Source: a virus
Lineage: Duplodnaviria; Caudoviricetes
Strand: one strand, 5' to 3'
Length of the DNA stretch: 64,000 bases
Virus record (IMG/VR): IMGVR_UViG_2599185359_000001
Coordinates: 1 to 64,000 of that record
Shown here piece by piece: positions 5,381 to 49,091 of the stretch. The translations under genes and the position numbers were made by a program. Each line of letters opens with the position of its first letter. The first letter of the stretch is position 1. The notes below the pieces were generated by a model that was not told the origin of the DNA, did not search any database, and worked only from the letters and a program-made list of their open reading frames with translations.

Positions 5381-6205
5381 GCGGTAGCCCAACCGAGCTT
5401 GAGGCTGTCGTCTACCGTGAGATCAAGCGGTCCGGCGCCCGCGGGGCAACTCTGGACGACGTTGTTCTGGTCACGCAGCTGGATAAGGTGACTGCTTCCC
5501 CTCGCTTCCGGCCGCTCGAAAACAAGGGGCTCATCAAGCGCGCCGGGAAGCGACCTGGCGCCGCGGGGCGAGGTCAGACGGTATGGGTGACGGCTTGAGC
5601 GGCGGGGCCGAAGACCTGCTTGACGCCGAGGTCGACGAGCTCCTGAAAGAGCTCGCGGCCACGGAGCAAAAGGCGAGGGCAAGCGATCTCTACCGCCAGT
5701 TCATGGCGCTACCGGATGAGCAGAAACGCGCGTGGGCGGAGATGATCATGCCTAGCATGATGCCGCGGTTTTTCGAGCCGATGAAGATGGACATCAGCTC
5801 GGAGCGTGAGAGCGACAGCTTCAGGTATCGCATGGACTGGAGCTTCGCGCCGGTGGTGCGTCACCCTAGGTCGATCGTGAGCATCCAGAGCGTATGAAGA
5901 CGCTGCGGCCCGAGAGCCCACCCGGCGGCGTCCGCTATCGACTGAGCTTCACCAAGCCCGGCGAGATGGAGAACGGCCGCGCCTGCCGGGTCTACTGCGA
6001 GGAGGAAGAGGCTGACGAGTGCATCGTCGAGCTGAGCGGCGTTCGCTGGACCGACTGGCGTTTCGGGCGCAGCGAACGCGACCCGAAGCAATGGGATAGC
6101 GATCTCCAGTATCTCCTCGACGCCTTCCAGCACGCGTTCGCCCAGGGCGTCACTCACCAGAAGAACCAGATCCGCGACCAGCTGCGGGAATTGATAGGTC
6201 TATGA
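5377..6205 (+). CDS. Small wHTH-like protein (5377-5598) and two hypothetical proteins (~5595-5897, 5894-6205)
   Basis: Coupled ORFs; first has GATLDDV...SPRFRPLENKGLI. Confidence 0.6.
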
Positions 6206-6594
6206 CGCACAACGAGGGCAACACGAAATACCGCCTGCAGCGGCTCATGGCGTCCCGTCAGTGGCTGATCCGTGCGGAGACGTTCATCGCCGGAAAGCCA
6301 CAGCCCCTGATCCATATCGAGAAAATCACGGATGTTGGCCAGGACGAGGAAGGCGCGCTCGTCGAGGGACTGCAGCGCCTGCGGCCAAAAGTGAAGCGCG
6401 GCGAGGAGCTCGCCTTGGGGCGAGACGTCTCTCTTCCGCCGGACCCGGTCGTCGATCGGATCGTCGCCCGAGAGCGCGCGCAGCGGGAGAAGGCCGAGGA
6501 AGCTCGCCGACGCGCGCTGGACGAAGCGCAAGCTCACCGTGAAGCAGCTGCTCGGCAGCTCGATGAAGCCAATCCGATGTGGGGGATGTTCTGA
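6202..6594 (+). CDS. Hypothetical protein with C-terminal NPMWGMF tag
   Basis: Coupled ORF; charged helical tail then tag and stop. Confidence 0.75.
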   Translation: MTHNEGNTKYRLQRLMASRQWLIRAETFIAGKPQPLIHIEKITDVGQDEEGALVEGLQRLRPKVKRGEELALGRDVSLPPDPVVDRIVARERAQREKAEEARRRALDEAQAHREAAARQLDEANPMWGMF

Positions 6595-7332
6595 TGGCCT
6601 CAAACCTCATCTGTGACACGGGCCGACACACCCTGTCGACCGAAGCGATCAACCGCCACTGCCATCACTGCGTGATGGAAGCCGCACGGCAGCGTTGCAT
6701 CGAACGCGGGGAGGGGTGGCGCTGGGGCGTCGAGACGATCGTGGTAGAGGTCAACCGCGACGACGCGGCCGCCTTCCGTGTGCTGGTGGGCAGCTTCCGC
6801 AACGCGAGGATCCTGACATGATCACGATGGAGGAGAAGGCTGCGGCCTGGATCGTAACCGCACGACACATGCTTCGACTGAACTCGGCCGGGCCGCTGCA
6901 CGCGGTGATCGAGGACGGGAACGTCGACGACGAGCACCTTTGTGCCGCGCTGGAAGACCCGGCGCTCACAGAGGCAGAGCGCCACTTCGCGACCATGTTC
7001 CTGCAGTGCTTCACCGCCGACGAGCGCGTGGCCATCTACGAGCTGACCACCGGCGCCAGCTGAGGCGTCGAGAGCAATGCCCTCTTTGTGTCATGTTCGC
7101 TCGCTGCTACCTCCAGGTCTCCCAAAATGAGGAGAGAGCGATGGATAAGCAGCAGATCGCGGACATGCTGGAGAAGATCGACGCCAACCTGAAGTTCATG
7201 TTTGGTGAGGCGGCGCGTCTCGCCGGGTCTCCCAAGGAAGGCTTGGGCCGATACGAGATGTGGGACGACAAGACCGGGGAGAAGATGCCCGACCTGGTCG
7301 AGCTGGCCGCAGCGGTGCGCAATCTTCCTTGA
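6594..7332 (+). CDS. Three small hypothetical proteins (6594-6821, 6818-7063, 7141-7332)
   Basis: Coupled starts; GAGGAG SD before 7141. Confidence 0.6.
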
Positions 7333-7468
7333 TGGCCAGACCCCGCCGGCCCTATCTGTGTCGGCGGGGTCAGACAGCAACGAATCGGGCCGAGCCATGT
7401 GCCGATCGTCGCGTTTTCCCTGCGCCCGCACTCAACCGTTCGTTGACTTCTGCGTTGTACCACCGATA

Positions 7469-7494
7469 TTGACGTAACGGTCAATACCGTTACG
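7469..7494 (+). promoter_or_regulatory. Promoter/operator of the TA pair: TTGACG overlapping a perfect 9-bp inverted repeat CGTAACGGT-caat-ACCGTTACG
   Basis: Seen directly upstream of 7517. Confidence 0.6.
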
Positions 7495-7516
7495 GTCACA
7501 GCGCTAGGAGGGCGAA

Positions 7517-15125: not shown

Positions 15126-17317
15126 TCAGAAGCTTGCCCAAAGGGGGTGCGCTTCCATGGAGCTGTGGTCGATAGGCTCGGGCTGCAACTCTTCCAGGTC
15201 GCTCACGCCGATGCGGCTGCGTTCATTGCCGTGGCGATCTGTCCATCCGCACTCCAGCGTCAGCTCCCACTCTCGCGCGTTCGATCGATGGGTGGTTTCG
15301 ATCTGAATGCCGCGGAAGCTGACTATACCGAGGCTGCCGAGCAAGTTCTCGTTCGCCAGCGCCATGCGGGCGTCGTCACGCATTACAATGCGCCACACCG
15401 GGCAGCCCTTTTCACGGGCCAACTGCAGCCCGTCGTCGATCTGCTCCGTCAGGGTGCGGAAGGTCATGTCACTGCCCCATGGCGGCTTCCCATCCCGCTT
15501 TGATGTTGTCGAGGCTCATCAATCAGATACCCTCCCTGACCGGCGGGAAGTAGATGGTGATCGTGTCTTCGTGGGCCGAGAATGCCCAAGCATGATTATT
15601 CCGCACCTCGAAAGGATGCGGCGCGCGATCGCGCTTGTGCGCAATGATGTAAACGGTCGCGGGATCGTAGTTGCGTTCGCTGCACGACAGCTCCACTGCG
15701 TCCAATAGAGCCGTAGTGTTGACGCCGCCATAACCCTGGCCCACCCAATCCATCAGCTCGCCGGTCCCAATCATGCAGACGGCACCTACCAGTGCGGAGG
15801 GGCGCCATCCCGTCTCGGGCGGCTCCAGATCGCGCAACCAATCGGTGAAGTTCGGGCGCGGCGAGGGCGTATTCATTCCGTGGGCTCCTCGTCCGCCTCG
15901 GAGATAGGCGCTTGCTTGATCGGCTCCTCGAAGGCGCAGATATTCAGCTTCACGACCTTCGGCTTGTGCCAGGGCGGCTGCTTGTCAGCGTGCTCCTTCG
16001 CGTCACCATGACACTGGAACCAAAGCGTGCGGTCTGCCCACGCCGTCTGCCCGCTGGTATAGCCTTCGCGGGAAGGGTGTGTGTAGCCGCCCACCGTGTC
16101 GACGAGGTAGATCAGCTTAGGCCGAAACCTGAGCTGGCCTTTGCGAAGGCGTAGCTTTCGTGCCGCCTCCATCAGTTCGGCAATCTTCATCGTTCACCTT
16201 TCCGCACCCACCGTGCTACGAGCAGCACGGGCGTGACGATTAGCCAGATCGCTATCAGCGTGCCGGCGGCGCGCGTGATTGCAAAGTACCAGGCGCGATC
16301 ATTCAGCCATTTCATTCTCTCATCTGCGCCAGCGAGGCAGTCGACGTAACTATCGCCGGGCTGGGGAGAAGTAAGCTGGGTCTCGCACACCGTGCTTATG
16401 AATTGGTCATGCTGGCTCGTCGCCAGATAGCCAGCGAGCCAATACATGGCGCCTATCGCCAGTATGAGATAGGCGCCGGAAAGCGCGATCGCGAGCCGTG
16501 CGCGCCTAGTCTTGAGAGTTATCCCCACGTTTATCCCCTATGCAACTGTGTCACCCATCACACCTGAATTGAAAGTGATCAAGGGCACGCGCTCAACGCC
16601 GAGCGCATCGCAATCGTCCAGATATTGCTGCACGCGCGCCATGGTGACGTCGTGCTCGTGACGGCACTGCGCCTGGATGACGCACCCGAACCCATACTGT
16701 TCTGCGTCCTTGATGAGCGCCGCCACCCCGCGCTCCTCGAAGCCGAAGTCGCCGGAGATATCTTGCAGGTCGCCGTTGGGTGCCCAGGATGCCGTGATGA
16801 CGTCGGAGCTCGCGACGAAGCCGAAGCAGGGCCAGTGGATCGCGAACGCCATGATGTCGGCGGCGGGGATGAAGGCCGAGAGGCCCCCATCGGTATGTCT
16901 GGTGACCAGCATCGGTCAGGCCGCCAGGCTGTCGGCATAGGCGTTGACCGGCGCCAACGCAGCCTCGAGGCTGCAGGCATAGTCGCTGATCACGTCGTCG
17001 CCACCATTGCCATAGACGAACCAGACGAAGCCGACGCGCTTGCCCTCGGCGTCGAAGGCGATCAGGCGATCATCATCCGTGGTGTTCATAGCCGCCATGA
17101 TCTCGCCGATCGAGGTGGACCGGGTGACAGTGGTCTCCTCGCCATCATAGACGCTCACCGAGTAGCCGGCGTCCAGAAGCGCCTGGGCCGCCTTGCGAGC
17201 AATCTTGCCCTCGGTCTCGATGCGCTTGATGAGGCGCTTGTAGCCCGCGTCGGTGGGGTCGTAGTCGCTGCCGCTCTTGATGCGATCGATCGACTGGCTG
17301 AAACCCGACTTGTCCAT
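15126..17317 (-). CDS. Operon of hypothetical proteins (15126-15467 ends HPLWASF; 15523-15876; 15873-16190; 16187-16528 two-TM; 16538-16912; 16916-17317)
   Basis: Tightly packed ORFs behind a hairpin/promoter cassette. Confidence 0.7.
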
Positions 17318-17402: not shown

Positions 17403-18991
17403 TCAGAAGGTCCCGTAGAGGGGGTTGCCCTCCATGGCAGCGAGCTCGGCCTGGCGCGCGTGCCGGTCACACGCGGCGTCGGATCGCAGCTTGGCGATGG
17501 GCAGCAGCTGGTCGGCCGGGCACGCGTCCTCGCCGAACCAGTTCTCCAGGCGCGTCAGCGTGCCCTCGGACATGCCGTAGACTTTCGCAGCGCGTTCCAA
17601 GGCGTCATCTAGGCATTCGAAATCCTCGTAGACGTGGACGGTGTCGCCGCCGACCTCTTCGAGCGAAGCGTCCCAGTGCAGACGGAAGCCGCCATCGGGG
17701 ATAGGCATGGTCAGTCCTTGATAAGCCCAGCTGCCCGCATCTCCGCAAGGCTAGGCATGTGTTCGTTCCCGCGGGACGCGCTGGGCTCCAGGTGCAGGAT
17801 CAGCTTGGTCAGCGGGTCGACGCCATCGTCGGTGACGGAGCGGATGACGACGCGATCGGGAGCCATGGAAACCAGCTGCACGCCGGCATGTCGCAGGATC
17901 TGGATCATCCGCGGGTTGTTGAGCGGAGGGTAGGTTCGGGCGCCCATCAGATGCACACCGCCTGGTCGAGCTCGAAGCGGTTGTACGCTCGCAGCATGTA
18001 CTCGCGCCATTCCAGGCTGGCGTCCGGCCAAGCCTTCACCTTCAGGTCGTCGAAGAAGATGCTGGCGACACCACCGTCCGTCTGGCCGAGCAGCAGCTGG
18101 ATGGGGGCAACTGCCTTGTCCAGGTTATCGACCTGGCATGATTGGGTGATCTGGTCGAACAAGGTCATGGCTCAGGCGGCCTCACCCATCACGGTGATCT
18201 CCGCGCCGCGATCCGTGGCAGCGATCGCGTCGAGCTCTTCCAAGAGCGTCGCGATTGCCTCCAGATCCGCGTCGGTGTTCTTGCCGCCAACGTCGACGTG
18301 GTTGTCGCTCGCGCCCTCGAGACCGATGGTGATACAGCCTGCCAGCAGCTGCAGCTGCCGATCGTTGAGCATGAAGCTCGCCATGTTCGTTTCCTTCTCT
18401 GTCACCGCACCGCTGCGGTAAAACCTATATGACCGAGCAAGCGTGCGGATGCGGGTGGGCAGTCATGCGGCGAGCAAGGGCACGCACTCGCCAGTCCTGA
18501 AGAGGTGCATTCGCTGCCAGATGGTGAAATTGCCATCGAGCTCCCCGGCGAGGATCTGGGCTACGGTCGACTCCAGCTCCCTGATCCAGGCCTTGGGGTC
18601 GTTGCACCGGGTCTCACCCGACCGGATGCTGGCGATCAGCCGGCGCTCGGGCTCGGCCGCGAACTGTCGCGCAGCCTGGCGATCGTCGAAGCCGGGGACG
18701 GGACGGGCTGCGCTTGCCATGTCAGCAGGTTGCGATGCGGACCCGGGTATCGCCGGTCGGGCGATGAAGGATGCCCGGCGTATTTTCGATGATGCGGACC
18801 TTGTAGCCCGCGCGCCGGTACTTGATCGCGAGGACGCCGGCCTGCCGGCGGGCTTCGTTTTCCTGCATGACGCCGATGCGACCGGTGCTGCACACGCCCG
18901 GCGGATCGATGATGATGGTCTGGACGGGGCGCGGGGCCGCGTCGAGCGGGACCGGCAGGGCCGGGGCGAGCAGAAGGGCGAGGAAAAGCAT
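17403..18991 (-). CDS. Small hypothetical proteins (17403-17708 ends NPLYGTF; 17711-17947; 17947-18168; 18172-18384; 18463-18720; 18722-18991 with signal-like N-terminus)
   Basis: Coupled ORFs with SD sequences. Confidence 0.65.
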
Positions 18992-21292: not shown

Positions 21293-21976
21293 TCACTGGA
21301 CGCTCGCAGGTGTCACGATCGCCTGGCACCGACCGTACCGTAGGACAAACTCCAAGCCCGGCTCGCTCACGGCGGCAGCAATGGGACGTAACGCCTCCTT
21401 CACCGCCATGAAAAGCTCATAGCCGTCCCAACCATCGCCGAAGCGACGGTGTGCCTTGCGGTAGCCCCGCCGCAGAAGATGCCGAGCGTCGGCGATGAAC
21501 TGGTCGACGGGGAAATCTTCGGGCAAGTTCGCGCAGCGGTCCTCCATACGCGACGAGATCTCGTGCCGCGCTACATCAAGCGCATCTGCGAAGTCCATGT
21601 CCGCTTCATGCCGGCGCGTACAGTAGGTGCGCGTGCCGGGCCACCAACCCACGGCACCATTTGCCTCCTGGTCGCATAGGTCATCGGCGACCTGGGCTAT
21701 GTTGTGGCCCAGGCGGGTGGTTGGCTTGTGAAAATCGCCGTGCCGATCGCCGAAGGTGCCCCAGCGTCCGCGTACCTGCCAGAGTCCACCCAGCGCCTCC
21801 AGCTCGTCCGCTGGGCACCCAATCGACGCGATGCCGTTCTGATGCTCCAGCAGATCGTGCGGCAATAGGCCACCGTTCCAGTCGACCAGAATACCAGGCG
21901 TGATTTCGGTGCCCTTGATCACGAGCCCAAGATTGCCGTTGTCGTCTTCGTGGCTGACGATGCGGACTGACCTCAT
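21293..21976 (-). CDS. Hypothetical protein (HDLLEH, possible HExxH-like metal site)
   Basis: ATGA-coupled to the upstream methyltransferase. Confidence 0.7.
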   Translation of the reverse strand: MRSVRIVSHEDDNGNLGLVIKGTEITPGILVDWNGGLLPHDLLEHQNGIASIGCPADELEALGGLWQVRGRWGTFGDRHGDFHKPTTRLGHNIAQVADDLCDQEANGAVGWWPGTRTYCTRRHEADMDFADALDVARHEISSRMEDRCANLPEDFPVDQFIADARHLLRRGYRKAHRRFGDGWDGYELFMAVKEALRPIAAAVSEPGLEFVLRYGRCQAIVTPASVQ

Positions 21977-23421
21977 GCCCGCTTCCGGTTCAGCGTGACG
22001 AGGCAGGTGTTTACGTTTGTCCCGCTCTCCGCGAACGAGCCGGGCGGCAGATCCTTGATGTTGCCATTCATGGTCTCCACCAGCTTGCGGAACGCCTCGG
22101 TCTTTCGATCGGTGCGGAACTCGATACTGGCGCTCATCACCGCGACGATCTTCCCGCCGGGAGCAAGGAACTTCACGGCATGGGCGACGTGGTCGATATC
22201 CAGGCCGCGATCGAATGGCGGGTTCATCAGGATCCGGTCGTAGATCGGCTGCGGCGAGCGCTTGAGGAAGTCGCCATCGATCACGTCGCCGACCTGGCAT
22301 GTCTCGCGCAGGGTGTCCGCGCGGCCAGGGTGGAGCTCGATCATGTCCACCGAGAACGTGGCGCCGCTTTCCCGCATGCCGCGGCACAGAGCCTTCACGA
22401 TCGCACCTTCGCCTGCCGAGGGCTCGAGGACGCGGAAATGCAGGTTGTTCTGTTCGGCATACCAGCGGGACACGTTCATCTCTGCTTCGCCGACGACGCG
22501 ATCCGCTACCGCGTCCGGCGTTGGGAACCAGCCCATGTTCTTCGCGACAGCCGTCGACTGCCGCGCCAAGGGATCGTCCTCGACCGCATCGCTGCCAGCG
22601 CCCAGCGCCTCACCGTAGTAGTCGGCGAGCTCCTTGTTCACCCGCTTCAGGAGATCGTCCCGCTTGAACCACAGGTGAGCGTTACCGTTCTTGAATACCC
22701 GGACGCGGAAGTATTCGTTCTCGACGGTGAATGCGCCGCGGACCAGACCGCGCGGCCGCGCGTCGTTGATCTGGCCGATGATACCAGCATAGCGCTCGGG
22801 CACCGATCGCTTCTCGGGGTCGGGATCGTTCTCGTGGTCGAGCTCCCAGAAGGCGCGCTCGATGTCGCGGATCGTATCCTCGTGGCGCGCATGCGTGTTC
22901 CACATGCCGTACGCATCGAAGACGTAGGTCAGCACCACCCGCTCGCCGATCTTGAAGCCGTCATGGCTGCGGAAGCGGCGGTCGAGCTTCGCGAAAGCGT
23001 TGGCGATGCCGCGCTGGAAGATCATCTTGGCGTTGCCGGCGAGGTTCGCGAGCGTGGAATAGGCCGTCTCGATCGAAACCTCGGGCGGGTCCTTCTCCAG
23101 CTGGTCGCGGAACTCCTGGTGCGCCTGGCGATCCATGAGCTTGTCAAAGCCATAGCCTTGGATGAGGTGGCCCCAGATCGTGCGGTCGGCTTGCTGGCGC
23201 AGGTAGGTGAGGAACCTGGCCCGCTCGTCAGGGCCGCGGCTGAATGCGCGCGAGGCGTTGGACTGGTCTACATAGAACTGCAGACCGCCGGCGGCCTTAG
23301 CTGCAGTCGCGAACGCCTCGTCGATCGCCTGGAAGGCTGTCGCGAACTTCTCGATGGCAAGGTTGCGATAGCCGACGATCTCGCTGATCTCGGCGCGGGT
23401 CACAAGGGCAGTGCCGGTCAT
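21973..23421 (-). CDS. DUF4942-domain amino-methyltransferase
   Basis: FKNGNAHLWF (DUF4942-like), WFPTP, VLEPSAGEG (motif I), ILMNPPF (motif IV). Confidence 0.85.
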   Translation of the reverse strand: MTGTALVTRAEISEIVGYRNLAIEKFATAFQAIDEAFATAAKAAGGLQFYVDQSNASRAFSRGPDERARFLTYLRQQADRTIWGHLIQGYGFDKLMDRQAHQEFRDQLEKDPPEVSIETAYSTLANLAGNAKMIFQRGIANAFAKLDRRFRSHDGFKIGERVVLTYVFDAYGMWNTHARHEDTIRDIERAFWELDHENDPDPEKRSVPERYAGIIGQINDARPRGLVRGAFTVENEYFRVRVFKNGNAHLWFKRDDLLKRVNKELADYYGEALGAGSDAVEDDPLARQSTAVAKNMGWFPTPDAVADRVVGEAEMNVSRWYAEQNNLHFRVLEPSAGEGAIVKALCRGMRESGATFSVDMIELHPGRADTLRETCQVGDVIDGDFLKRSPQPIYDRILMNPPFDRGLDIDHVAHAVKFLAPGGKIVAVMSASIEFRTDRKTEAFRKLVETMNGNIKDLPPGSFAESGTNVNTCLVTLNRKRA

Positions 23422-24924
23422 CAGTGCTGCCCCTGTTCCACGATGCGGATCATGTCGAATGCGGTGAAAGGCGACATCGAGATGGGCCACGGCTCTCCAG
23501 GCTGCTTCTCGGCGGCCGGCGTGAGTCTGAGGCCATCGGCGAGCACCTCGTGCAGCTTCATTTCGACCTCGTGGTCATCGCCGTTCCAGATCACCTTGAG
23601 CGTGAAGTTGGCGCCGCCGTGTGTGTCGCTCTCGTCCTTGAGGCGCTCGTCGAGGATCTGTGCAATCGTGCGGAGGGGCATTGTCTGTTCCTTCATCACC
23701 GGTCACCGCTGACCGTGTGAGTGTTATTGCACACGCGCTGAAGGCGTGCGGGTGGCTTACTCGCTGACGCGAGCGGCGATGTGCTTCTGCAGGTGTTCGG
23801 GCAGCGCGAGCCAATTGATGCGTTCGCCGAGACACGGCCCCTCTTCGCAGATCGAGAATTGCGAGAACCCCAGGGGGCGTGTGGGCTGGTCGTCAAGGCC
23901 AAGGCACTCGAACAGCGAGCCCACCGGCAAGTCGAGCACGACAGTATAGCGGTCCTGGGTGCTGCCGCCGTTATCCCAGATCGATCGGACATTGCTCGGC
24001 TTCGGCATCGATGGCGGGACGGCCGGCGTGCACACGCGGCAGATCTCGGAGCCCTGATCGCCGTGGATCGTGCCGGTACCAGCGCAGCCGAAGCAGATGA
24101 GGCTCATGCGCGTCGCCTCGCTCGCTTCAGCATGCGTTCCAGGCTCATGCTCTGCGGCTTCTGTCGCCCGGGCGACTGGTAGAAGTAGGGCGCCACGAGC
24201 TCTTGGATCTTGTCGTCGATATTGGGCAGCTCCGGCGGCTTCGCGGCCTCGCGAGCGTCGATCTCTGCACGGGTCTCGAACTGCGGGTGGCCTAGGCGTG
24301 GGAAGAAGTCTTGCGCCCACCCTCGTCGATTGACAGCATCTTCACCGATGTCCCGCGCGCAGTCGGCGCAGTACCAGGAATAGGATCCGTGATTGTAATG
24401 GAGCGCGGGCTCTGCTTGGCAGCGCGAGCGGTTGCAGGCGCCGCCTTCCTTGCCCTTGTTGGGCTTGTCAGGGCCGTTGTAGTCGCCGTAGGCCATCAGC
24501 CGCGCTCCGCTTTGCGATCCGCGAACAGCTGCAGCGCTTCGTCGGCGCAACGTTCCCAAGGCGCGTAGGCAATCATGCCGGCGTTCATGCGATCGCGCTG
24601 GTCCTGCGGCATCTGCTTCACCAGCTCGGAATACTTGGCGACGGCCTCCAGGACGAACGCCTGCATCAGAACGCCGGTGCGCGAGCCTTCCATCATCCGC
24701 GCCACGAACTCGACATTGGTCTCGGGGTCCGTGGGATGCGGATTGAGGGCATCGCCGGGCACCAGCATCTCGCGGTTGTCCGACATGGACGTGACGACGA
24801 ACATGTCCTCGTCGACGCGGCGGTCATGGGCGCGCAGGACCCTAACCTGCTGCCGGCGCATGTCGATGAAGCCGCCAAACGGGCGCTCATAGGTGCCGTC
24901 GTCGATCTCGCTGATCTTTCGCAT
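23421..24924 (-). CDS. Hypothetical proteins (23421-23681; 23757-24107 with CxxC; 24104-24496 Cys-rich; 24496-24924)
   Basis: Coupled ORFs, two behind hairpin cassettes. Confidence 0.65.
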
Positions 24925-25002: not shown

Positions 25003-26365
25003 TCAGAAGGTGCCCCACAGGGGGTTCGCCTCGATCTCATCCTGCGCGCGCTCATCTGCGAGCTTGGCGTCGATGGCCGCCTGGGCAGCCTTCTCGCGGC
25101 GTTCCCTCAAGGCCTGGTGCGCTTGGCGCCGAGCCTCCTCAATCTTGCGGAGCGCCTCGACCGCCTTGCTTTCCATCTCCCCAAGTGGCGTTCGCGGCCC
25201 ATCCTCGTTCATGAGGTTCGCGTGATGCGAGAGCCATGGCGTGCCGTCTGCCTTGTAGTAGATCGGGTTCCCGCCCTGACCATCGGCCTTGACCATGAAG
25301 CGTACACCCTGGCCGAACTGCTGCCGGAAGTGGTCGGTGATATCTCGACCGATACGGGTAGGCGACAGCGGGACGACCTTGCCGTCGTCATCGAGCATCG
25401 CGACGAGATGGACAGAAGGGCCATAGTAGCCACCGTCTGAGTCCTGCCGCGGCACCATCCTGAGCGGGGCTTCCCAGTCGATCATTGGCCGGCGCTCCGC
25501 ATGCCTGCGCCGAGCTTCTTCCACTCAAGCTCACCGCGGCGGTTGCGAACCTGGACCATGCCAGGCTCGGGCGCGAGTTCACGCTTGCCCTCGGGAGGCT
25601 TGCGGTAGCGCCCGCCGCGCTCGAAGTGGCTGCGGTCGCGGGGAGGTGCCGCTCGATCGATGAAAGGGTGCGCGTTGAACCACTCGTCATGGATCACGAT
25701 CATCTTGCGTGCGGCCCTGGCAGCGTGACCCGCTTGCTCGGCGGCTGCACGCAATGCGTGATTGAGGAGCATGAACGACTTGCCCTGCTGGCGCGCGCCG
25801 ACAATTGCGATGGCTCGATGAATACCGTCGACCGGCACGTGCGGGGCGATGATAGTAGGCTCCATCAGAACATTCCGAACATCGGGTTGTCGAGCATGGC
25901 GGCCTGCTCTGCTGCGGCAGCTTCCTCCGCCTCCAGCTGGGCGACGGTGATCTCGACGAGCTTGGGCGCTCCGTTGATCGGCGTCAGACGCGGCCACACG
26001 TAGAGATACCGCTGCCCAGATGCCGTGACGAGTCTGAGCTTGGTCCCGCGATCGAAGATCCGGCCGGCGATCGGGTTCGTGGCGTCAGGGAAGCGCAGCA
26101 GCGGCATCTGCGTGTTGACGATCCTCGGAGCGCCTGGCCCGCGCGCTGCGTCGAGCGTGCCATCGGGATTGACCATGACAGGCTTGGTAGTGCTGAGCTT
26201 CGGCATGGTCGCGGCGTTCCAGCCGCGGGGCGTGTCGATCCCGACGACCATGTAGGCGGTGAGCTCCTCGCCGTCGCACACCCGGCGCCACTCGGTCGGG
26301 TCAAGCTCGCACGCGGTGCCGTCGTCCCACTCGATCGGCATCCGCCAGTTCAGAACAGTCCCCAC
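25003..26365 (-). CDS. Hypothetical proteins: 25003-25485 (ends NPLWGTF), 25482-25865 (GARQQGKS P-loop-like remnant), 25865-26365 (ends NPMFGMF)
   Basis: Coupled ORFs. Confidence 0.7.
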
Positions 26366-26673
26366 AGGGCGCTTCCTTCCATTTCAGTTGTGTCGATTGG
26401 CGCAGGCGGCGGGGCAGGGGCGCCGACAGCTGCCTGAACGCCCGCGTCAAGCATGATCGCGAGCGCCTCGTAGGTGATGACCTGGGCGCCGCGGGCGGCT
26501 GCCGTCTTCGCCTTGACGGTATTCGTGCGCGACGCGACCAGGATGTCGCAGTTGTCGGCGGTGTCCGTGTAGACGTAGCCCGCATCCTCGATCATCTTGA
26601 TCCAGTCAGGCCGGTGCACCTGGACATTGTTCTTCATGCCCTTGCCGGTGAGGGCGATCCGCTTCCATCCCAT
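26350..26673 (-). CDS. Stand-alone BRCT-like domain protein ending SALWGLF
   Basis: IALTG...R..WIKMIEDAG...CDILVA...K..A...GAQVITYE pattern matches ligase-type BRCT. Confidence 0.65.
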   Translation of the reverse strand: MGWKRIALTGKGMKNNVQVHRPDWIKMIEDAGYVYTDTADNCDILVASRTNTVKAKTAAARGAQVITYEALAIMLDAGVQAAVGAPAPPPAPIDTTEMEGSALWGLF

Positions 26674-27978
26674 CAGAACATCCCCCAAAGCGGGCTGCTG
26701 GCGTTGGCGCGCTCGGTCTCCTCGCGCGCTCGTCGAGCCCACGGCGTCTCGACCTCTTCCTCTTCCACGAAGAGATCCTCGGTCGGATCGAAGGTCTCGA
26801 TCTTGCCCCAGGGGCAGCCTTCATCCACCGGGCTCCCGAGAGCGCCGTAGACAAAGCCGGTCCCGATCGCGTCAGGGCGCGTGTCGAGGCGCTGGCCGCC
26901 GGTGACATACAGCCGGCGACGCGTGCGCACGGTTCGGATCGGAAGCGAGAAGTCGATCATCGTTATTCGTCCAGCTCGGGGAGCTCAGCGCCGTCGAGGA
27001 TCGTGCCGAGCTCCGGTTCGCGCGCATCGAGGAACAGCGCAGCATCGAGCACCGCCTGGGAGCCGAAGCCCTCCATGCTCTCAAGCCGCAGACATTCCGC
27101 TTCGATCGCTTCCTTGGCGCCAGCGCGCGCGAGATTCTCCGCCTGTGCAGGCGTGTCGGCTTCGATCGTCGCCGTGATGTAGCGGCGGCAGTTGAACGCA
27201 TAGGTGACGGTGAACTCCGCCATCAGAACTGCGCCATTTGGGAGTAGCGCGGATCGAGCGCTTCGGGCGCGCGATTGGTGGGCGCTGCGATTGCCGCCTG
27301 GGCCGGCGTGAGCTGCTTGGGTCGCGACATCTGAATGGCGATGGCAGCAGTCCGAGCGAACTTGAATTGGCGTCCGGTGCTCTCGCACACGCCGTCAATC
27401 GGATACTTCGGCCTGCTCGGAGACACGCCGGTGAACCGGTAGCGTTTGCCCAGGCTCGTAAACACGAGCCCATAGTCGCTGCCCGCCAGGCCGAGGGACC
27501 GACCGTTGACGTCGATCAAGCGGCGCGCGGCGTCATCTGCCGCAGTCGTGTCGGCCGAGGACGCGACCAGCGAGAGGGTGAGGCTGTGCGCGCCTAACTG
27601 ACCGCCCTTGACCTCGAACTTCAGCCCATGCCGCTGCCCGAGCTCCGCGAGCTCGGCGACCACGTCAGCCGAAAGCGCGCGGTGGCCGGTCTTGTTGAAA
27701 TCTTTGAACATCGAACATCCTTCTCGTCTACGGTCACCGCTGACCGCATGTGTGTTATTCACCATATCTAGCAGGCGTGCGAATGGCTTCTGTTACGGTG
27801 CTTCGCCATCCACGGTGTCTTGCTCAGCGGCTTGGACCAGGAACTCTCCGTGGCTGGCGCAACGGCCTTTGAAGATGGGTCCGTCGTCATCGATATCGAC
27901 CGGTTCGCCAGTCTCCAGGCGAGCGCCACATTTAGGGCACGCGAATGGCACGTCGTAGAAGACGAGGATCTCGAGCAT
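26673..27978 (-). CDS. Hypothetical proteins (26673-26960 ends SPLWGMF; 26963-27223; 27223-27711; 27793-27978 Zn-ribbon)
   Basis: Coupled ORFs. Confidence 0.65.
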
Positions 27979-34026: not shown

Positions 34027-34343
34027 AAATCCTCGGAGAAAAGCCCGGGGAAACTGGATCCCGACTTCCGGTTGGCCGGATCCACCTGGCCGGCGGCAAC
34101 CGCGATCTCCAGCGCCTCCGCGCGTCCGACATAGCGGCCGATCGAAGTCGTGAAGCCTTGATCATCGCCGCCTGTGCCGTGCCCGAGAATGTCGAAGCTG
34201 GGGTGCAGCAAGGTGTGGTGCCGCGCCGGTGGCGGTGCGCTTATGGTCAGGAAGTCGGGATAGGGCTTCGCGCAATCATGTTCGCGCTTGGCCCAATGAT
34301 CGGGTACACGAACCCTAATTGCCGCCGCGACGATCGTTTCCAT
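34020..34343 (-). CDS. Phage hypothetical protein (RHH...QGFTTS.GRYVGR.EA...LFSEDLW type)
   Basis: Motif pattern familiar from phage hypothetical proteins. Confidence 0.7.
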   Translation of the reverse strand: METIVAAAIRVRVPDHWAKREHDCAKPYPDFLTISAPPPARHHTLLHPSFDILGHGTGGDDQGFTTSIGRYVGRAEALEIAVAAGQVDPANRKSGSSFPGLFSEDLW

Positions 34344-34945
34344 CAGAACATCCCCCAAAGCGGGCTGCTCTCCAGCACGGCAGTCTGCTTCTCGGTCAGC
34401 GGCTCGTTCTTGCCGACAGCAGGCGGCGAGCCGGCGAAGGCTTTCGCGCACGCGTCGGCAGCATCCTTGCTCTCCCAGAGCTTGCCGGGCACGACGACGC
34501 GCCCGGTGGGCAGATGCAGCGTGGTGCTGCTCGTGCCGCGGTCGAAGAACACCTGGACGGTCTTGTCGCGCCAAACAGCGCGGCGCCGACCTGTGGTGAC
34601 GTCTTGCGGCAGCAGGCAAAGGGTCTCGAACTGCGCGCCACGGGTACCCTGCGGGCCGATGCCACACAGGGAGATGAGCTTCTCGGGATCAGGGCGGCGA
34701 AGGTTCGCGCCGGTCTCCCAATCGTTCTTCGGCAGCAGACCGTTCCAGGTCTTCGCGAACAGCCAGTCGCCCTTGCTCTGCTTGATCAGGCGGAAGTGGT
34801 GCCCGTTGCGATTGACGAACACGATCGGGCAATCCTGCCAGCGGTCATCGGCATCGAAGTGGAAGATGTGGATGTCGTTGGCCAGCGAGACCACCGCGGG
34901 CTCGCCGCGCTGTGCAACGAAGTCGGTTACGGACTGCAGGTCCAT
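34343..34945 (-). CDS. Hypothetical protein ending SPLWGMF
   Basis: SD AAGGAG, hairpin and promoter upstream. Confidence 0.75.
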   Translation of the reverse strand: MDLQSVTDFVAQRGEPAVVSLANDIHIFHFDADDRWQDCPIVFVNRNGHHFRLIKQSKGDWLFAKTWNGLLPKNDWETGANLRRPDPEKLISLCGIGPQGTRGAQFETLCLLPQDVTTGRRRAVWRDKTVQVFFDRGTSSTTLHLPTGRVVVPGKLWESKDAADACAKAFAGSPPAVGKNEPLTEKQTAVLESSPLWGMF

Positions 34946-45691: not shown

Positions 45692-47725
45692 TTACTGGCA
45701 GGACTCGCAGACCGGCTCGTCGATGTAGACGGGGCCGGCTGGCGCTGCCTCGATGTGGGCCTGCGGCATCTCGCCGGCCTGATTGCCGATCGCCATCGCC
45801 TTCGAGGCGGACTTCGACCGGAGGTAGTAGAGGCTCTTCACGCCCTGCTCGTAGGCATAGCGATGGATCTCCACGAGGTCCTTCTTGTGCACCGTCGACG
45901 GCAGATAGATGTTCAGCGACTGCGACTGGCAGATGAACGGCGTCCGCATCGCGTGATGCTTCACCACCCAACGCTGGTCGATCTCGAAGGCGGTCTTGTA
46001 GTTCGCCTTCTCGAGACGGCAGAAGTAGGCGAGGTGCTGCACCGAGCCGTCATTGACGGTGATCGATGCCCACTGCGCCTCTACCCACTCTTGCTCGCTT
46101 TGCTCTTCGACGCCGCGGAACATGGGCTGCTCGCGCAGCAGCACCGCGACCGTCTTGTTGGCGGCTGCCAGGCTGTCACGCAGCTGGTGGTAGCGCCGAC
46201 GCAGCTGGGCATCGAGGTACTTGTTCCGCACATTGAACGAGCCGGAAAGCGTCTTCTGGGTGTAGCTGTTCGCCGGGATCGGCTCGCCGCAGGCGCTGGC
46301 GCCGCCGCAGATGATCGAGATCGAAGCCGTGGGGGCGATCGAGAAGCGGTTCGTCAGGCGCCGCGGCTTGACGGACGGGTCGAGCTGGCGGGCGTCCGCG
46401 GAGTCAGGGTTCTCGCCGCGCTCGCGGACGAGCTGCTCATCGGCTTCGTCGGCCTCGGCCTTCATGAACTCCCAGAAGCTCATGTTCTCCTTCTCGGCCG
46501 CGACGCTCTCGAAGGGGATCTCCTTCGACTGGAGGTAGCTGTGGAAGCCCATCATGCCCAGGCCGACCGAGCGCTCGCGCATCGCCGAGTAGCGGGCTCG
46601 CTCGAAGCCCACCATGCCGGCGGTCTGCGCGATGAACTCGGTGAGCACGTTGTCGAGGAAGCGCAGGACGTTCAGCACGAGCTTCTTCTCGCCGCGCCAC
46701 TGATCCCAGGTTTCCATGTTCATGGACGAGAGGCAGCACACCGCGGTGCGCCAGTTGCCGAGGTGATCCTCGCCGGTGGGCAGCGTGATCTCGGAGCACA
46801 GGTTGGACTGCACGACCTTCAGGCCGAGCACCTTTTGGATCTCGGGGAGCATGCTGTTCACACGGTCCGAGAAGACGATGTACGGCTCGCCCAGCTCAAG
46901 GCGCGCGGTCACCAGCTTGATGAACAGCGCACGGGCATCGACCGTCTTGATGACGGCGCCGGTCTTGGGGCTCTTCAGCTCCCAGACACGCTCTTCCTGC
47001 GTTTCGAGCCATACCTTGTCCATGAAGGCGTCGGGCACCATCACGCCGTGGTGGATGTTGTGCGCCTTGCGCCGCTGATCGCCGCCCTGGTGCCGGCGGA
47101 TGTCGATGAACTCTTCGATCTCCGGGTGGGCGAGGTCGAGGTAGACGGCCGCCGAGCCGCGGCGCAGCGAGCCCTGGCTGATCGCCTCGGTCTGAGCGTC
47201 CTGCCAGCGGACGAACGGAACGATGCCGCTGGTGGTGCCGGTGATCGAGCCGCCAATGGGCTCGTCGATCGAGCGCACGTCGCCCCAGAACGTGCCGATG
47301 CCGCCGCCCATCGCCGCGAGCCAGATGTTCTCGTGCACGCCCTGGGCGATCGACGTCATGCTGTCGCCGATGCGGTTGAGGAAGCAGCTGATCGTCAGGC
47401 CGCGCTTGGTGCCGCTGTTCGAAAGGATCGGCGTTGCCGGCATGAAGTAGAGGCGCGAGATGGCGTCATACATGACCTGGGCGTGGCCGGTCTTCTCGCC
47501 GCGCACGACTTCATCGGAGTTGGCGCAGGCGACGCGGGCGAACAGATCCTGGTAGCTCTCGCCCGGCAGGAGGTAGCGGTCGCGCAGGGTCGCCTTGCCG
47601 AACTCGGTCAGCAGTGCGTCGCGGCTGTCGTCGATGGTGATCGACACGAGGGCGCTGGCCTCGGTCGGGTAATGGTAGACGCGAGTGGTCGCGCCCGGCG
47701 CTTGCGTGTCCGCAGCATCCGTCAT
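45692..47725 (-). CDS. nrdA: Ribonucleotide reductase class I alpha subunit (no ATP cone apparent)
   Basis: PATP, SCFL, GGGIG, SNLCSE, APTAS, SLYY, C-terminal CESC; SD AGGAG before 47725. Confidence 0.95.
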   Translation of the reverse strand: MTDAADTQAPGATTRVYHYPTEASALVSITIDDSRDALLTEFGKATLRDRYLLPGESYQDLFARVACANSDEVVRGEKTGHAQVMYDAISRLYFMPATPILSNSGTKRGLTISCFLNRIGDSMTSIAQGVHENIWLAAMGGGIGTFWGDVRSIDEPIGGSITGTTSGIVPFVRWQDAQTEAISQGSLRRGSAAVYLDLAHPEIEEFIDIRRHQGGDQRRKAHNIHHGVMVPDAFMDKVWLETQEERVWELKSPKTGAVIKTVDARALFIKLVTARLELGEPYIVFSDRVNSMLPEIQKVLGLKVVQSNLCSEITLPTGEDHLGNWRTAVCCLSSMNMETWDQWRGEKKLVLNVLRFLDNVLTEFIAQTAGMVGFERARYSAMRERSVGLGMMGFHSYLQSKEIPFESVAAEKENMSFWEFMKAEADEADEQLVRERGENPDSADARQLDPSVKPRRLTNRFSIAPTASISIICGGASACGEPIPANSYTQKTLSGSFNVRNKYLDAQLRRRYHQLRDSLAAANKTVAVLLREQPMFRGVEEQSEQEWVEAQWASITVNDGSVQHLAYFCRLEKANYKTAFEIDQRWVVKHHAMRTPFICQSQSLNIYLPSTVHKKDLVEIHRYAYEQGVKSLYYLRSKSASKAMAIGNQAGEMPQAHIEAAPAGPVYIDEPVCESCQ

Positions 47726-47797
47726 GAAGGGGTTACTCCTAGGGTTGAACGTCGAGGGGATTGTATCAGACGTGTGTGTGTCGGTCGACACATTGCA

Positions 47798-48406
47798 TTA
47801 AGAAATAAGAGCCGCCATCATCCCCGCGAGCTGACGGAATTGTTCGCTGGCGATCGCCGCCTGCACGCCGGAGATGGCGTCGGCCTGGTGCTCCATGTCC
47901 TTGAGGATGTAGCCGCCGCGGTGCTCGATCTCGAACTCGTTCTTCCGGGGACCGACTCCCCACTCGACCGGACTGTCCGTGCGTTCGGTGAGGGCCAGCG
48001 CCCAGCGCATGATGTCCTCCTTGTCGGCAGTCTTCGAGCCTACCGAAGCCATCTTCACCTCAGCCGGGCTGACCTCGATCAGCGGAATGGTGAGCGATGC
48101 GAGAATGCCGATCGCGATACCGAACGCGCTCGCTGCGTTCGCGCTCTGACCGCCAGACGGTACCTCAGCAGCACCAACCCTGATCTGGTGCTGTGCGATC
48201 ACCTCGCGCAGCTTGACCGCGTGAGCGCGTGCGCGGTGCATCTTGTCGCTCGAACTGCGAACCTGCTTGTTCTTGGTCTTCTCGGTCTTGATGGTGCTCA
48301 TCTCGAGGACGCGGATGATCTTCCGGGTCTCCGTGCACACCTCGCACACCGCATAGCCGGTGTGCGTGAGGCTGGGATCGATGCCCAGCATTCGAATGAT
48401 TGTCAC
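47798..48406 (-). CDS. RuvC-like Holliday junction resolvase
   Basis: GIDPSL.HTG, AE, VSPAEVK, K, HQADA. Confidence 0.85.
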   Translation of the reverse strand: MTIIRMLGIDPSLTHTGYAVCEVCTETRKIIRVLEMSTIKTEKTKNKQVRSSSDKMHRARAHAVKLREVIAQHQIRVGAAEVPSGGQSANAASAFGIAIGILASLTIPLIEVSPAEVKMASVGSKTADKEDIMRWALALTERTDSPVEWGVGPRKNEFEIEHRGGYILKDMEHQADAISGVQAAIASEQFRQLAGMMAALIS

Positions 48407-48545
48407 TGCTTCCTCTTGAGCGCGAGGTGAGGGCAGCCGCCGGAATACAGGCGGCAGTTAAGCGGCGTCTTCGTCCCGCCGGCTGCGTGGTGCGTCTTGG
48501 CGGCCTCGACGATGCGTGCGGGTGCGCCGCAAGGGGCGCAGCTCA

Positions 48546-49091
48546 TCAGAACTGGCCCCATAGGGGGTTGGATTGATCGATGCTGTTCGTCACCTGCTCT
48601 TTCTTATCCTGCTGGGCGACCACAAAGCCCTCTGAGAGGATCTTGTGCATCGCCGCGTTCTTCTTGATCGCATCGACCACGGCTGCCTGGATGTCGGCGA
48701 CCTTGGCGCCGTCCAGGTAACTCTCGACCCGCTCAGCCAGGTCGCCGAAGCAGTTGATGATGTCATCCCAGGCCAGCTCGATCCATTCGACCGGACCCTT
48801 GTCGCAGACCCATTCGCCGTCGACCGGCATGACGAAGATGAGCCCGTCGCGTTTGCCGAGCCGGATCTCCTTCGCGTTGACGCGCGTACCGGTCGGCACG
48901 CTATGCCGGCGGTACCCCTTCTCCTTCACAGCGCACGCGCAGAGGATCGGGAGCTCGACAGGGTAGGGGCCGTGGACACTCGCCCGGGCGAAGGCCGCGG
49001 CCAGCTTGACCAAATCCTTCACCGTCGAGGTATTTGCGGCCTTGGAGATCATGTCGGCGGTCACCTGGACCGCCGGTGCTTTCTTGCTCAT
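48546..49091 (-). CDS. Hypothetical protein ending NPLWGQF
   Basis: SD GAGG; lies within the core replication block. Confidence 0.75.
   Translation of the reverse strand: MSKKAPAVQVTADMISKAANTSTVKDLVKLAAAFARASVHGPYPVELPILCACAVKEKGYRRHSVPTGTRVNAKEIRLGKRDGLIFVMPVDGEWVCDKGPVEWIELAWDDIINCFGDLAERVESYLDGAKVADIQAAVVDAIKKNAAMHKILSEGFVVAQQDKKEQVTNSIDQSNPLWGQF

What the first reader, a model, noticed from the sequence alone, without database searches (positions are those of the whole stretch)
6202..49091. Shared C-terminal tag (N/S/H)PxWGxF-stop on at least nine mostly unrelated proteins
Seen: C-termini NPMWGMF (6202-6594), HPLWASF (15126), NPLYGTF (17403), NPLWGTF (25003), NPMFGMF (25865), SALWGLF (26350, BRCT-like), SPLWGMF (26673), SPLWGMF (34343) and NPLWGQF (48546), usually after an acidic or Ala-rich linker. 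A looser variant is RYSQMAQF (27223). The genes lie on both strands and codons vary while residues are conserved, which points to a protein-level signal. Established analogies are the T4 clamp-binding LDFL(F/L/Y) tails, SSB C-terminal tails and capsid-targeting peptides. Inference: a docking tag recruits diverse cargo to one hub, for example capsid loading for injection, the AAA+/vWA chaperone pair at 62336-64000, or the replisome.
Basis: partly seen in the sequence, partly recalled or inferred. Interest (0 to 1): 0.88.

Follow-up and report, generated by a model that had tools for sequence, protein, structure and literature searches.

The report
Shared C-terminal address tag, SSU5-like phages
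Nine otherwise unrelated small proteins of this 108-kb prophage end in the same peptide (NPxWGxF). The same ending recurs on 2 to 14 proteins in every related phage I examined, from Sphingomonas to E. coli and Klebsiella, so it behaves like an address label read by one partner that is still unidentified.

Summary
Nine ORFs at 6.2-49.1 kb end in [NSH][PA][LM][WFY][GA]xF-stop. The rest of the 4.77-Mb genome has one such ending among about 41,000 ORFs.

The element is a ~108-kb integrated SSU5/RHEph10-like siphophage. It has a T4-like recombination and replication set (gp32, UvsX, UvsY, SbcCD, RuvC), a DnaE-UDG fusion and a CobS/CobT-like AAA+/vWA pair. No clamp was detected by the Pfam clamp models.

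The tag is a feature of the whole lineage. Variants of aromatic-[GA]-x-aromatic occur in all nine other genomes examined:
- RHEph10: 7 proteins (NPNFGRF)
- Pseudomonas phage nickie: 10-14 (FGGWA)
- Stenotrophomonas phage BUCTxx99: 6-11 (NYGDW)
- two complete IMG/VR genomes: 7 and 5
- E. coli phage Cyrano: NPIWGTW and SWGSW (50 kb read)
- SSU5 and Klebsiella pJN2-26: 2 each (WATW)

In two orthologue sets (40-73% identity) W/F, G and F are invariant while the linker varies. Codons differ and the tails model as disordered.

The best reading is a docking motif for one common, probably phage-encoded reader. Its identity is unresolved. CobS/CobT is the leading single candidate, on circumstantial evidence only. 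Beta-clamp, R2-tail and HslV readings were rejected. CheR/CheB pentapeptide mimicry fits formally but fails in Klebsiella phages and in nickie.

This scan has found shared C-terminal tags before in other phages, with different motifs.

The parts
6202..6594 (+). Tagged gene 1, 130 aa, ER/K-rich helical spacer then ..LDEANPMWGMF-stop
   Evidence: no Pfam/PHROG family
15126..15467 (-). Tagged gene 2, 113 aa, ..SMEAHPLWASF-stop (last four residues identical to host chemoreceptor tails)
17403..17708 (-). Tagged gene 3, 101 aa, ..AMEGNPLYGTF-stop
25003..25485 (-). Tagged gene 4, 160 aa from the ATG, long charged helix then ..EIEANPLWGTF-stop
25865..26341 (-). Tagged gene 5, 158 aa, ..AMLDNPMFGMF-stop
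   Evidence: weak similarity to RHEph10 tagged gp140 (E=0.003)
26350..26673 (-). Tagged gene 6, 107 aa, probable BRCT-like domain, Pro/Ala linker, ..EMEGSALWGLF-stop
   Evidence: PHROG 3869 NAD-ligase C-terminus E=0.0018; language-model neighbours are BRCT clusters at 0.88-0.89
26673..26960 (-). Tagged gene 7, 95 aa, ..ANASSPLWGMF-stop; its last 30 nt are identical to those of gene 8
34343..34945 (-). Tagged gene 8, 200 aa, ..VLESSPLWGMF-stop. 17 orthologues keep WG[MA]F across a variable linker
   Evidence: A2; AF2 pLDDT 78, residues 194-200 below 50; no fold match
48546..49091 (-). Tagged gene 9, 181 aa, between SbcC and RuvC, ..IDQSNPLWGQF-stop. A tagged gene sits just downstream of SbcC, between SbcC and the RuvC-like gene, in SSU5, pJN2-26, Cyrano, nickie, G402 and G403; RHEph10 has a tagged gene in that interval but several genes downstream of SbcC
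   Evidence: (A1); AF2 pLDDT 85, tail below 50; no fold match
27223..27765 (-). Possible tenth carrier, HicB-like, ..RYSQMAQF-stop (fits only the loosest form, hydrophobic-A-x-F)
62336..63577 (-). CobS-like MoxR AAA+ ATPase with an N-terminal ~140-aa extension that cyanophage, IncC and S. meliloti CobS matches do not cover. Candidate tag reader, not shown
63676..64000 (-). 3' part of the CobT-like vWA gene (runs off the window; MIDAS DCSGS intact). The upstream half carries HEVGH and a sigma-70 region 4. Candidate tag reader, not shown
47798..61805 (-). Recombination and replication block that holds tagged gene 9: RuvC-like 47798-48406, SbcC 49102-51408, SbcD 51254-52309, UvsX/RecA 54407-55447, FEN 55447-56430, gp32-like SSB 56538-57596, UvsY-like 57663-58253, DnaE-UDG fusion 58266-61805. 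These are alternative candidate readers

Best explanation
The ending is a short linear docking motif. In this phage its extended form is hydrophobic-E-x-[NS]-P-[LM]-W-G-x-F-COOH; across the lineage the core is aromatic-[GA]-x-aromatic, with nothing or one small residue after it. It sits at the tip of a disordered or long charged-helical spacer on small, fast-evolving accessory proteins. One common reader recognises it and so gathers these unrelated proteins at one place. That place is most likely the phage's recombination and replication machinery, because the few carriers with a recognisable domain bind DNA ends or nicks (Mu Gam-like, WGR, probable BRCT). The most conserved carriers sit next to SbcCD/RuvC and next to the primase.

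The best single candidate is the CobS/CobT-like MoxR AAA+/vWA pair at the head of the replication block. The remaining candidates are gp32, UvsX, UvsY, SbcCD, the helicase-primase, or two conserved proteins of unknown function.

What is shown: the motif, its enrichment, its conservation under purifying selection, its modularity and its spread across the lineage.
For: - Enrichment: 9 in the window against about 0.02 expected.
- Protein-level constraint: codons vary between copies.
- Purifying selection: in 10 orthologues of gene 9 (57-73% identity) P, L, G and F are invariant. In 18 members of the gene 8 family (40-61%) W, G and F are invariant, while the preceding linker varies in sequence and length.
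- Modularity: the carriers are unrelated to each other. Pfam and PHROG domain matches stop before the tail (WGR 43-116 of 214, Mu Gam 1-99 of 110). Positional equivalents in G402 and G403 share no detectable similarity with gene 9 yet carry the tag.
- Lineage-wide: the tag is in all nine other genomes I examined, on hosts of two proteobacterial classes.
- The tail is modelled as unstructured after a helix.
- For a phage reader: the motif differs by phage lineage (F-final in the Sphingomonas and Rhizobium phages and in the two uncultured 61% G+C genomes, W-final in enteric and Stenotrophomonas phages, an extra small residue in nickie). It matches no host hub motif that I could name.
- For CobS/CobT: both genes are in every annotated tag-bearing genome. 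In G402 and G403 only CobS was searched for, and it was found.
- The full-length form of CobS is confined to about the same 32 phage records as the DnaE-UDG fusion.
- The CobT-like MIDAS site is intact in all seven proteins read.
- Independent parallel: in IncC plasmid pEC2-NDM-3, an operon bounded by a CobS-like AAA and a vWA gene has four of seven proteins, including Bet and Exo, ending in an acidic run plus two or three aromatic residues (DHFF, GSYY, TFYW, DYFF). The DUF3150 partner ends VFSF and FALFL in two other plasmids.
- Precedent: the NorD C-terminus docks on hydrophobic post-sensor-1 loops of the MoxR ATPase NorQ (PMC13036017).
Against: - No binding was tested, and no multimer modelling was possible with these tools.
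- CobS/CobT cannot be separated from some 30 other core genes by presence or absence, because every relative has all of them.
- The CobT-like C-terminus itself does not resemble the tag.
- A phage with a distant MoxR (Vibrio phage Saratov-12) has no shared tail.
- The IncC tails (two adjacent aromatics) differ in form from this tag.
- The near identity of the motif in E. coli phage Cyrano and the Sphingomonas phage (NPIWGTW against NPLWGxF) would also fit a conserved host reader.
- SSU5 and pJN2-26 have only two carriers each, which is not enriched over the reversed-sequence control.
- Similar claims of one common reader for other phage tags in this scan were later priced low.
Confidence: 0.55

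Rival explanations
1. Degron. The tail marks early accessory proteins for timed destruction by a host protease or adaptor (Lon, ClpXP/ClpAP, FtsH, HslUV) or by a phage protease, which could include the zincin-like half of CobT working with CobS as unfoldase.
For: C-terminal, exposed, hydrophobic or aromatic tails are classic degrons (established knowledge). The carriers are small accessory proteins in early-type gene arrays, and no core enzyme carries the tag in any genome. CobT-like proteins keep an HExxH motif in five of the seven read. RHEph10 and nickie encode an HslV-family peptidase.
Against: The HslV-like gene is absent from this phage and from SSU5. The motif resembles no degron I know (ssrA LAA, the ClpX C-motifs, sul20). 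The strict conservation of N-P and G is more specific than most degrons need. The two most conserved carriers look like stable accessory subunits of SbcCD and the primase.
Confidence: 0.12
2. Host hub mimicry of the chemoreceptor pentapeptide. The tails copy the C-terminal xWxxF tether of methyl-accepting chemotaxis proteins and bind host CheR or CheB.
For: Every tag in the window fits the published operational definition xZxxZ-COOH, where Z is F, W or Y (PMC7390727). Five of the host's 25 MCPs end in [DE]WA[SN]F, the host has seven CheR homologues, and one phage tail ends ..PLWASF.
Against: Klebsiella phage pJN2-26 keeps both tags exactly (..VWATW..GWATW), although K. pneumoniae normally lacks chemotaxis genes (my own knowledge, not tested here). 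Most nickie tags carry an extra residue after the last aromatic. RHEph10 tags have Arg at position -1, and tags in general lack the negative charge typical of pentapeptides, whose site on CheR is positively charged. The conserved N-P and G have no counterpart in MCP tails. It is hard to see why nine different proteins would need to meet CheR.
Confidence: 0.05
3. Capsid-targeting signal. The tail docks cargo on the procapsid interior, scaffold or portal, so that anti-defence or end-protecting proteins are packaged and injected with the DNA.
For: C-terminal targeting peptides exist in HK97-fold shells (encapsulin cargo peptides, the C-terminus of the HK97 protease; my own knowledge). A Mu Gam-like end-protection protein carries the tag in nickie, and co-injection of such a protein would be useful.
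Against: No scaffold, protease or other structural-module protein carries the tag in any genome examined. Tagged genes lie in replication and early-type arrays, often translationally coupled to replication genes. No virion proteome was found.
Confidence: 0.08
4. Binding to a conserved host replication hub, the beta sliding clamp or SSB.
For: Clamp-binding and SSB-binding motifs are short, often C-terminal and end in F (review PMC11139829, found but not read; the motif statement is my own knowledge). The phage encodes a DnaE-type polymerase but no clamp or canonical SSB of its own that Pfam models detect.
Against: The tag has no Gln. Its aromatic spacing (positions -3 and 0) differs from QL[SD]LF and QxxLxF. 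The enteric variants WATW and WGTW do not resemble the well-defined E. coli motif. None of six phage DnaEs has a Q..[LM].?F motif where clamp-dependent alpha subunits carry one. Host hub motifs are nearly constant across proteobacteria, whereas this tag varies by phage lineage.
Confidence: 0.05
5. No protein reader. The tail is a small interfacial membrane anchor, or it acts in cis as a nascent peptide that tunes termination and re-initiation at overlapping stop-start junctions.
For: Trp and Phe favour the membrane interface. Many tags end at TGATG or ATGA overlaps with the next gene, and in nickie the extra Ala or Ser is usually encoded by xCA TGA, which creates the next ATG.
Against: Tags also occur without an overlapping downstream start. 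The invariant N-P, G and final aromatic are encoded by varied codons. Two aromatic residues give only weak membrane affinity. RHEph10 tags carry Arg.
Confidence: 0.06

Closest known systems
T4/RB69 clamp-binding C-terminal tails (gp43, gp33, gp55 and others docking on gp45), and the acidic F-terminated tails of T7 gp2.5 and gp4 that dock on gp5
   Same: Several unrelated phage DNA-metabolism proteins end in one short hydrophobic or aromatic peptide read by one phage hub. The tail is C-terminal and sits on a flexible spacer.
   Different: No clamp was detected here, and the motif is different. Here the carriers are mostly small accessory proteins, not the core enzymes.
Chemoreceptor C-terminal pentapeptide (NWETF / xZxxZ) that tethers CheR and CheB
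   Same: Identical formal pattern: aromatic at -3 and at the C-terminus, at the end of a linker. The host uses [DE]WA[SN]F on five MCPs.
   Different: The carriers are not chemoreceptors. The tag has extra conserved N-P and G and no negative charge. It persists in Klebsiella phages and, with an added residue, in nickie.
MoxR AAA+/vWA couples (NorQ-NorD, CbbQ-CbbO, CobS-CobT), in which a hydrophobic C-terminus docks on the ATPase ring
   Same: The phage encodes a CobS/CobT-like pair with an intact MIDAS site next to the tagged module. In NorQD a C-terminus contacts hydrophobic post-sensor-1 loops (PMC13036017). IncC plasmids have aromatic tails on proteins inside a CobS-like/vWA operon.
   Different: In NorQD the docking tail belongs to the vWA partner itself, not to many clients. 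No client tag has been described for any CobS/CobT-like pair. The link here is by co-occurrence only.
SSB C-terminal tip (DDDIPF) interactome
   Same: An acidic spacer plus a terminal hydrophobic-Pro-Phe tip mediates many replication and repair contacts.
   Different: The polarity is reversed: one hub carries the tail and many partners read it. The phage's own gp32-like SSB has a separate conserved acidic tail (..DDIDDILAGLE).

Membership tests
Chemoreceptor CheR/CheB-tethering pentapeptide | C-terminal xZxxZ (Z = F, W or Y) | tested here: met
   All nine tags fit, for example LWGMF, LWASF, LYGTF, MFGMF; definition from PMC7390727
Chemoreceptor CheR/CheB-tethering pentapeptide | Carried by a methyl-accepting chemotaxis protein (MCPsignal domain) | tested here: not met
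   No Pfam family on any carrier. All 25 MCPsignal matches lie outside the prophage
Chemoreceptor CheR/CheB-tethering pentapeptide | [quoted passage not shown] | tested here: not met
   The last five residues of the window tags are uncharged and RHEph10 tags contain Arg, against the acidic consensus
Chemoreceptor CheR/CheB-tethering pentapeptide | Binding to a pentapeptide-dependent CheR or CheB of the host | not testable with these tools
   The host has seven CheR homologues and five pentapeptide MCPs. Retention of the tag in a Klebsiella phage argues against this as a general function
Bacterial beta-clamp-binding motif (QL[SD]LF / QLxLxL) | Gln at position 1 and hydrophobic residues with the canonical spacing | tested here: not met
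   No Gln; aromatics at -3 and 0 with G at -2
T4-type clamp-binding tails | A phage-encoded sliding clamp to read them | tested here: not met
   PF02768 matches only the host dnaN on C10. PF09116 and PF02916 find nothing in the genome. A very divergent clamp among the unknown proteins is not excluded
Short linear docking motif (SLiM) shared by multiple clients of one hub | Short, lies in a disordered or spacer region, conserved while the flanks vary, and occurs on unrelated proteins | tested here: met
Short linear docking motif (SLiM) shared by multiple clients of one hub | A demonstrated common binding partner | not testable with these tools
   Only single-chain structure prediction was available. 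No interaction data were found in the literature
Client tag of a MoxR AAA+/vWA (CobS/CobT-like) machine | Tag and machine co-occur, and are absent together | tested here: inconclusive
   CobS and CobT are in every annotated tag-bearing genome, and CobS is in G402 and G403. No relative lacks the pair, so the absence half cannot be tested. IncC and other plasmids give an independent parallel. Saratov-12, with a distant MoxR, has no tag

The most novel reading that the evidence does not exclude
The tag is the client-recognition signal of the phage CobS/CobT-like MoxR AAA+/vWA(-zincin) machine. These widespread genes, annotated as 'porphyrin/cobalamin biosynthesis' in phages and in IncC/SXT-type elements, would then be a protein-remodelling or processing device. 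It would act on DNA-end-binding and recombination accessory proteins that it grips by an aromatic C-terminal tail.
Probability: 0.22. Interest if true: 0.85.

Novelty: new variant of a known kind. Interest (0 to 1): 0.66.

Why it matters
Shared docking tails organise the T4 and T7 replisomes and the bacterial SSB and clamp interactomes. A new tail implies a new hub.

I found no description of this tail in the paper searches I ran. It sits in cultured, genetically tractable phages and phage-plasmids: SSU5 and Cyrano in Salmonella and E. coli, the SSU5-like plasmids common in clinical Klebsiella, nickie and RHEph10.

The tag gives a handle on about 50 proteins of unknown function across these genomes. 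It could also give the first function to the CobS/CobT-like gene pair, which is widespread in phages and in IncC/SXT resistance elements. It also shows that a published sequence rule for CheR/CheB-binding pentapeptides is met by non-chemoreceptor phage proteins.

Tried and rejected
- Beta-clamp binding: no Gln, wrong spacing, and the phage DnaEs have no clamp motif.
- Phage-encoded clamp or canonical SSB: none found.
- Mimicry of the RNR small-subunit tail: the window's R2 ends EWGEAF and SSU5's ends FADL, which looked suggestive. RHEph10's R2 ends ADDEF while its tags are NFGRF, so there is no parallel.
- HslV-like peptidase as reader: present in RHEph10 and nickie, absent from this phage and SSU5.
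- CobT's own C-terminus carrying the tag: it does not; it ends in a conserved amphipathic helix.
- DUF3150 partner in this genome: none.
- SSU5_105 (..PAWDW): not a tag, because the ending is part of the DUF5983 domain.
- Function of two carriers by fold: AF2 models are good, but Foldseek against the PDB found nothing significant.
- The conserved 264-aa protein upstream of DnaB: no Pfam family or PDB relative.
- Related prophages among 400 genomes of the host's class: none with the gp32-like query.
- The IMG/VR relative found through alignment A1 was a fragment with a single tag.
- A pattern scan of IMG/VR gave 21 loci, of which four were true.
- Literature: nothing on this tail or on the function of phage CobS/CobT.
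I ran no further homology search with the third slot, and no multimer prediction is available.


Full report
**What is there.**

It also finds the loose variant ..RYSQMAQF at 27223-27765. All nine have the codon-position G+C pattern of real genes in this 63% G+C genome.

In the whole 4.77-Mb assembly, 41,065 ORFs of at least 60 aa yield ten matches to the strict pattern. Nine are these. With the looser core [WFY][GA]x[WF][AGS]?$ the window has 9 of 760 ORFs, against 0 in the reversed-sequence control. The host genome outside the prophage has 32 of 47,725.

Codons for Pro, Leu and Gly differ between copies, so selection acts on the peptide. The exception is a 30-nt identity between the ends of 26673-26960 and 34343-34945, which includes the rare codons CTT and GGG. 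This suggests that tag-coding ends are exchanged by recombination. With the tag removed, the carriers show no similarity to each other. None has a Pfam family, and only one has a weak PHROG hint.

**What the element is.**

The window lies in a prophage of about 108 kb (C16:25.3-133 kb). Its genes match, in order, those of Rhizobium phage RHEph10, Salmonella phage-plasmid SSU5, Klebsiella phage pJN2-26 and Pseudomonas phage nickie. An orthologue of one carrier is named as coming from Sphingomonas, so the host is probably a sphingomonad.

The replication block is T4-like in its recombination proteins:
- gp32-like SSB with an acidic tail
- UvsX/RecA
- a UvsY-like protein (structure-based match)
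- FEN
- SbcCD
- RuvC

The block also has a DnaE polymerase fused to a UDG-like domain, class I RNR, ThyX, a DNA ligase and a CobS/CobT-like MoxR AAA+/vWA pair.

Pfam models for the beta clamp, the T4 gp45 clamp and canonical SSB find no phage copy. None of six phage DnaEs has a Q..[LM].?F clamp-binding motif.

**The tag is a property of the whole lineage.**

| Genome | Tagged proteins | Tag form |
|---|---|---|
| RHEph10 | 7 | [NH]P[NMR][FY]G[RM]F; includes a WGR-domain protein right after the primase |
| nickie | 10 to 14 | aromatic-G-x-[WF]-[AGS], or without the last residue; includes the genes after the primase and after SbcC, and a Mu Gam-like protein |
| Stenotrophomonas phage BUCTxx99 | at least 6 | NYGxW |
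| G402 (IMG/VR, 109 kb, terminal repeats) | 7 | (P/A/E)xWGxF |
| G403 (IMG/VR, 106.5 kb) | 5 | PxWGxF, YGSW |
| E. coli phage Cyrano (50 kb read) | 2 | ..LENPIWGTW after SbcC; ..KMISWGSW after the primase |
| SSU5 and pJN2-26 | 2 each | ..WATW on the same two positional orthologues, identical at about 60% protein identity |

The two IMG/VR genomes were found by scanning for the back-translated tag.

A tagged gene sits between SbcC and the RuvC-like resolvase in this phage, SSU5, pJN2-26, Cyrano, nickie, G402, G403 and RHEph10. In RHEph10 it lies several genes downstream of SbcC. In BUCTxx99 the gene after SbcC is not tagged. The G402 and G403 proteins at that position are not detectably similar to the window's.

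**Selection and structure.**

Ten orthologues of gene 9 (57-73% identity) keep [NH]PL[WF]GxF, with P, L, G and F invariant. Eighteen members of the gene 8 family (40-61% identity) keep W, G and F invariant, with a nearly invariant Glu eight residues upstream. The 25-residue linker before the tag varies in sequence and length.

AlphaFold models of both proteins have confident bodies and a helical spacer. The last four to seven residues have pLDDT below 50. Several carriers present the tag on a long ER/K-rich helix. This is the anatomy of a short linear docking motif.

**Who reads it.**

This could not be settled.

I rejected the following:
- The beta clamp, on motif form and on the missing DnaE motif.
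- The RNR large subunit, because tail mimicry fails in RHEph10.
- An HslV-like peptidase, which is absent from this phage and from SSU5.

One resemblance deserves mention. The tags satisfy the published rule for the chemoreceptor pentapeptide that tethers CheR and CheB (xZxxZ-COOH; PMC7390727). Five of the host's 25 chemoreceptors end in [DE]WA[SN]F, and one phage tail ends ..PLWASF. However, the tag is kept exactly in a Klebsiella phage, and that host normally has no chemotaxis system (my own knowledge). Most nickie tags carry an extra residue. The tags lack the acidic character of pentapeptides. I rate this reading as unlikely to be general.

The lineage-specific forms of the tag favour a co-evolving, phage-encoded reader. 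Against this, the close match between the Cyrano and Sphingomonas-phage tags would also suit a conserved host protein.

Carriers with recognisable domains bind DNA ends or nicks: Mu Gam-like, WGR, and probably BRCT. The conserved carriers flank SbcCD/RuvC and the primase. The hub is therefore most likely part of the recombination and replication apparatus.

**The CobS/CobT lead.**

Earlier notes of this scan pointed to MoxR/vWA pairs as possible tag readers. I tested what I could.
- CobS and CobT are in every annotated tag-bearing genome. In G402 and G403 only CobS was searched for, and it was found.
- The full-length CobS form, with its ~140-residue N-terminal extension, is limited to about the same 32 phage records as the DnaE-UDG fusion.
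- The vWA MIDAS motif is intact in all seven CobT-like proteins read, and an HExxH motif is present in five.
- Independent parallel: in IncC plasmid pEC2-NDM-3 an operon runs CobS-like AAA, a hypothetical protein (..DHFF), ssb, bet (..GSYY), exo (..TFYW), DUF3150 (..DYFF), vWA. The DUF3150 partner ends ..VFSF and ..FALFL in two other plasmids.
- Precedent: in NorQD, a C-terminus docks on hydrophobic loops of the MoxR ring (PMC13036017).

This is co-occurrence and analogy, not proof. No relative lacks the pair, so the decisive absence test is impossible. The IncC tails differ in form from this tag. A phage with a distant MoxR has no shared tail.

**Novelty and verdict.**

The principle of shared tails read by one hub is known from T4, T7, SSB and clamps. 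Neither this motif nor its distribution appears in the papers I could search. The scan has reported other shared phage tags, with other motifs, and their 'one reader' claims were later priced low. I keep mine moderate for that reason.

What sets this case apart is the breadth of conservation, across phages of alpha- and gammaproteobacteria, and the fact that the carriers include cultured, tractable phages. The question is therefore directly testable.

I file it as a new variant of a known kind:
- a docking function is likely;

Noticed in passing
window 58266-61805 (-): The phage DnaE (Pol III alpha) carries a C-terminal UDG-superfamily domain (Pfam UDG at residues 1029-1159) where cellular alpha subunits have the OB and tau-binding region. 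It also has no clamp-binding motif. The fusion is shared by about 31 phage records. By analogy with poxvirus D4 (a UDG used as a processivity factor, my own knowledge), the UDG-like domain might replace the clamp.
   Followed up: partly
L053 (IncC plasmid pEC2-NDM-3, NZ_KC999035.1 79365-87358): The operon runs CobS-like AAA, hypothetical, ssb, bet, exo, DUF3150, vWA. Four of the seven proteins end in an acidic run plus two or three aromatic residues (DHFF, GSYY, TFYW, DYFF). This looks like a second, undescribed tail system on a clinically common resistance plasmid backbone.
   Followed up: partly
genome C9:217910-219781, C9:486034-488073, C10:32991-34874, C13:353497-354891, C16:453862-455778: Five of the host's 25 methyl-accepting chemotaxis proteins end in [DE]WA[SN]F, a CheR/CheB-tether pentapeptide. 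The host has seven CheR homologues.
   Followed up: partly
window 26670-26699 and 34340-34369: The 30 nt encoding SSPLWGMF-stop plus the next TGG are identical in two unrelated genes, including rare codons. Tag-coding ends seem to be exchanged by recombination.
   Followed up: yes
L058:1112-2527 (-) = C16:90418-91833, just right of the window: The CobT-like gene is split. The N-terminal half (CobT domain, HEVGH) ends in a sigma-70 region 4 domain (Pfam Sigma70_r4_2, E=6e-7). The vWA half is a separate downstream gene.
   Followed up: partly
window 56538-57596 (-) and relatives: The gp32-like SSBs of all relatives end in a conserved acidic motif (..DDIDD[IF]L..L) like T4 gp32. These phages therefore have two distinct tail systems.
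   Followed up: no
L014-L016 (nickie), ends of tagged genes: The extra Ala or Ser after the tag in nickie is usually encoded by xCA TGA, which forms the ATG of the next gene.
   Followed up: yes
window 21973-23490 (-): A DUF4942 plus methyltransferase protein, conserved in SSU5 and pJN2-26 (29% identity). It is probably a DNA-modification enzyme of the phage.
   Followed up: no
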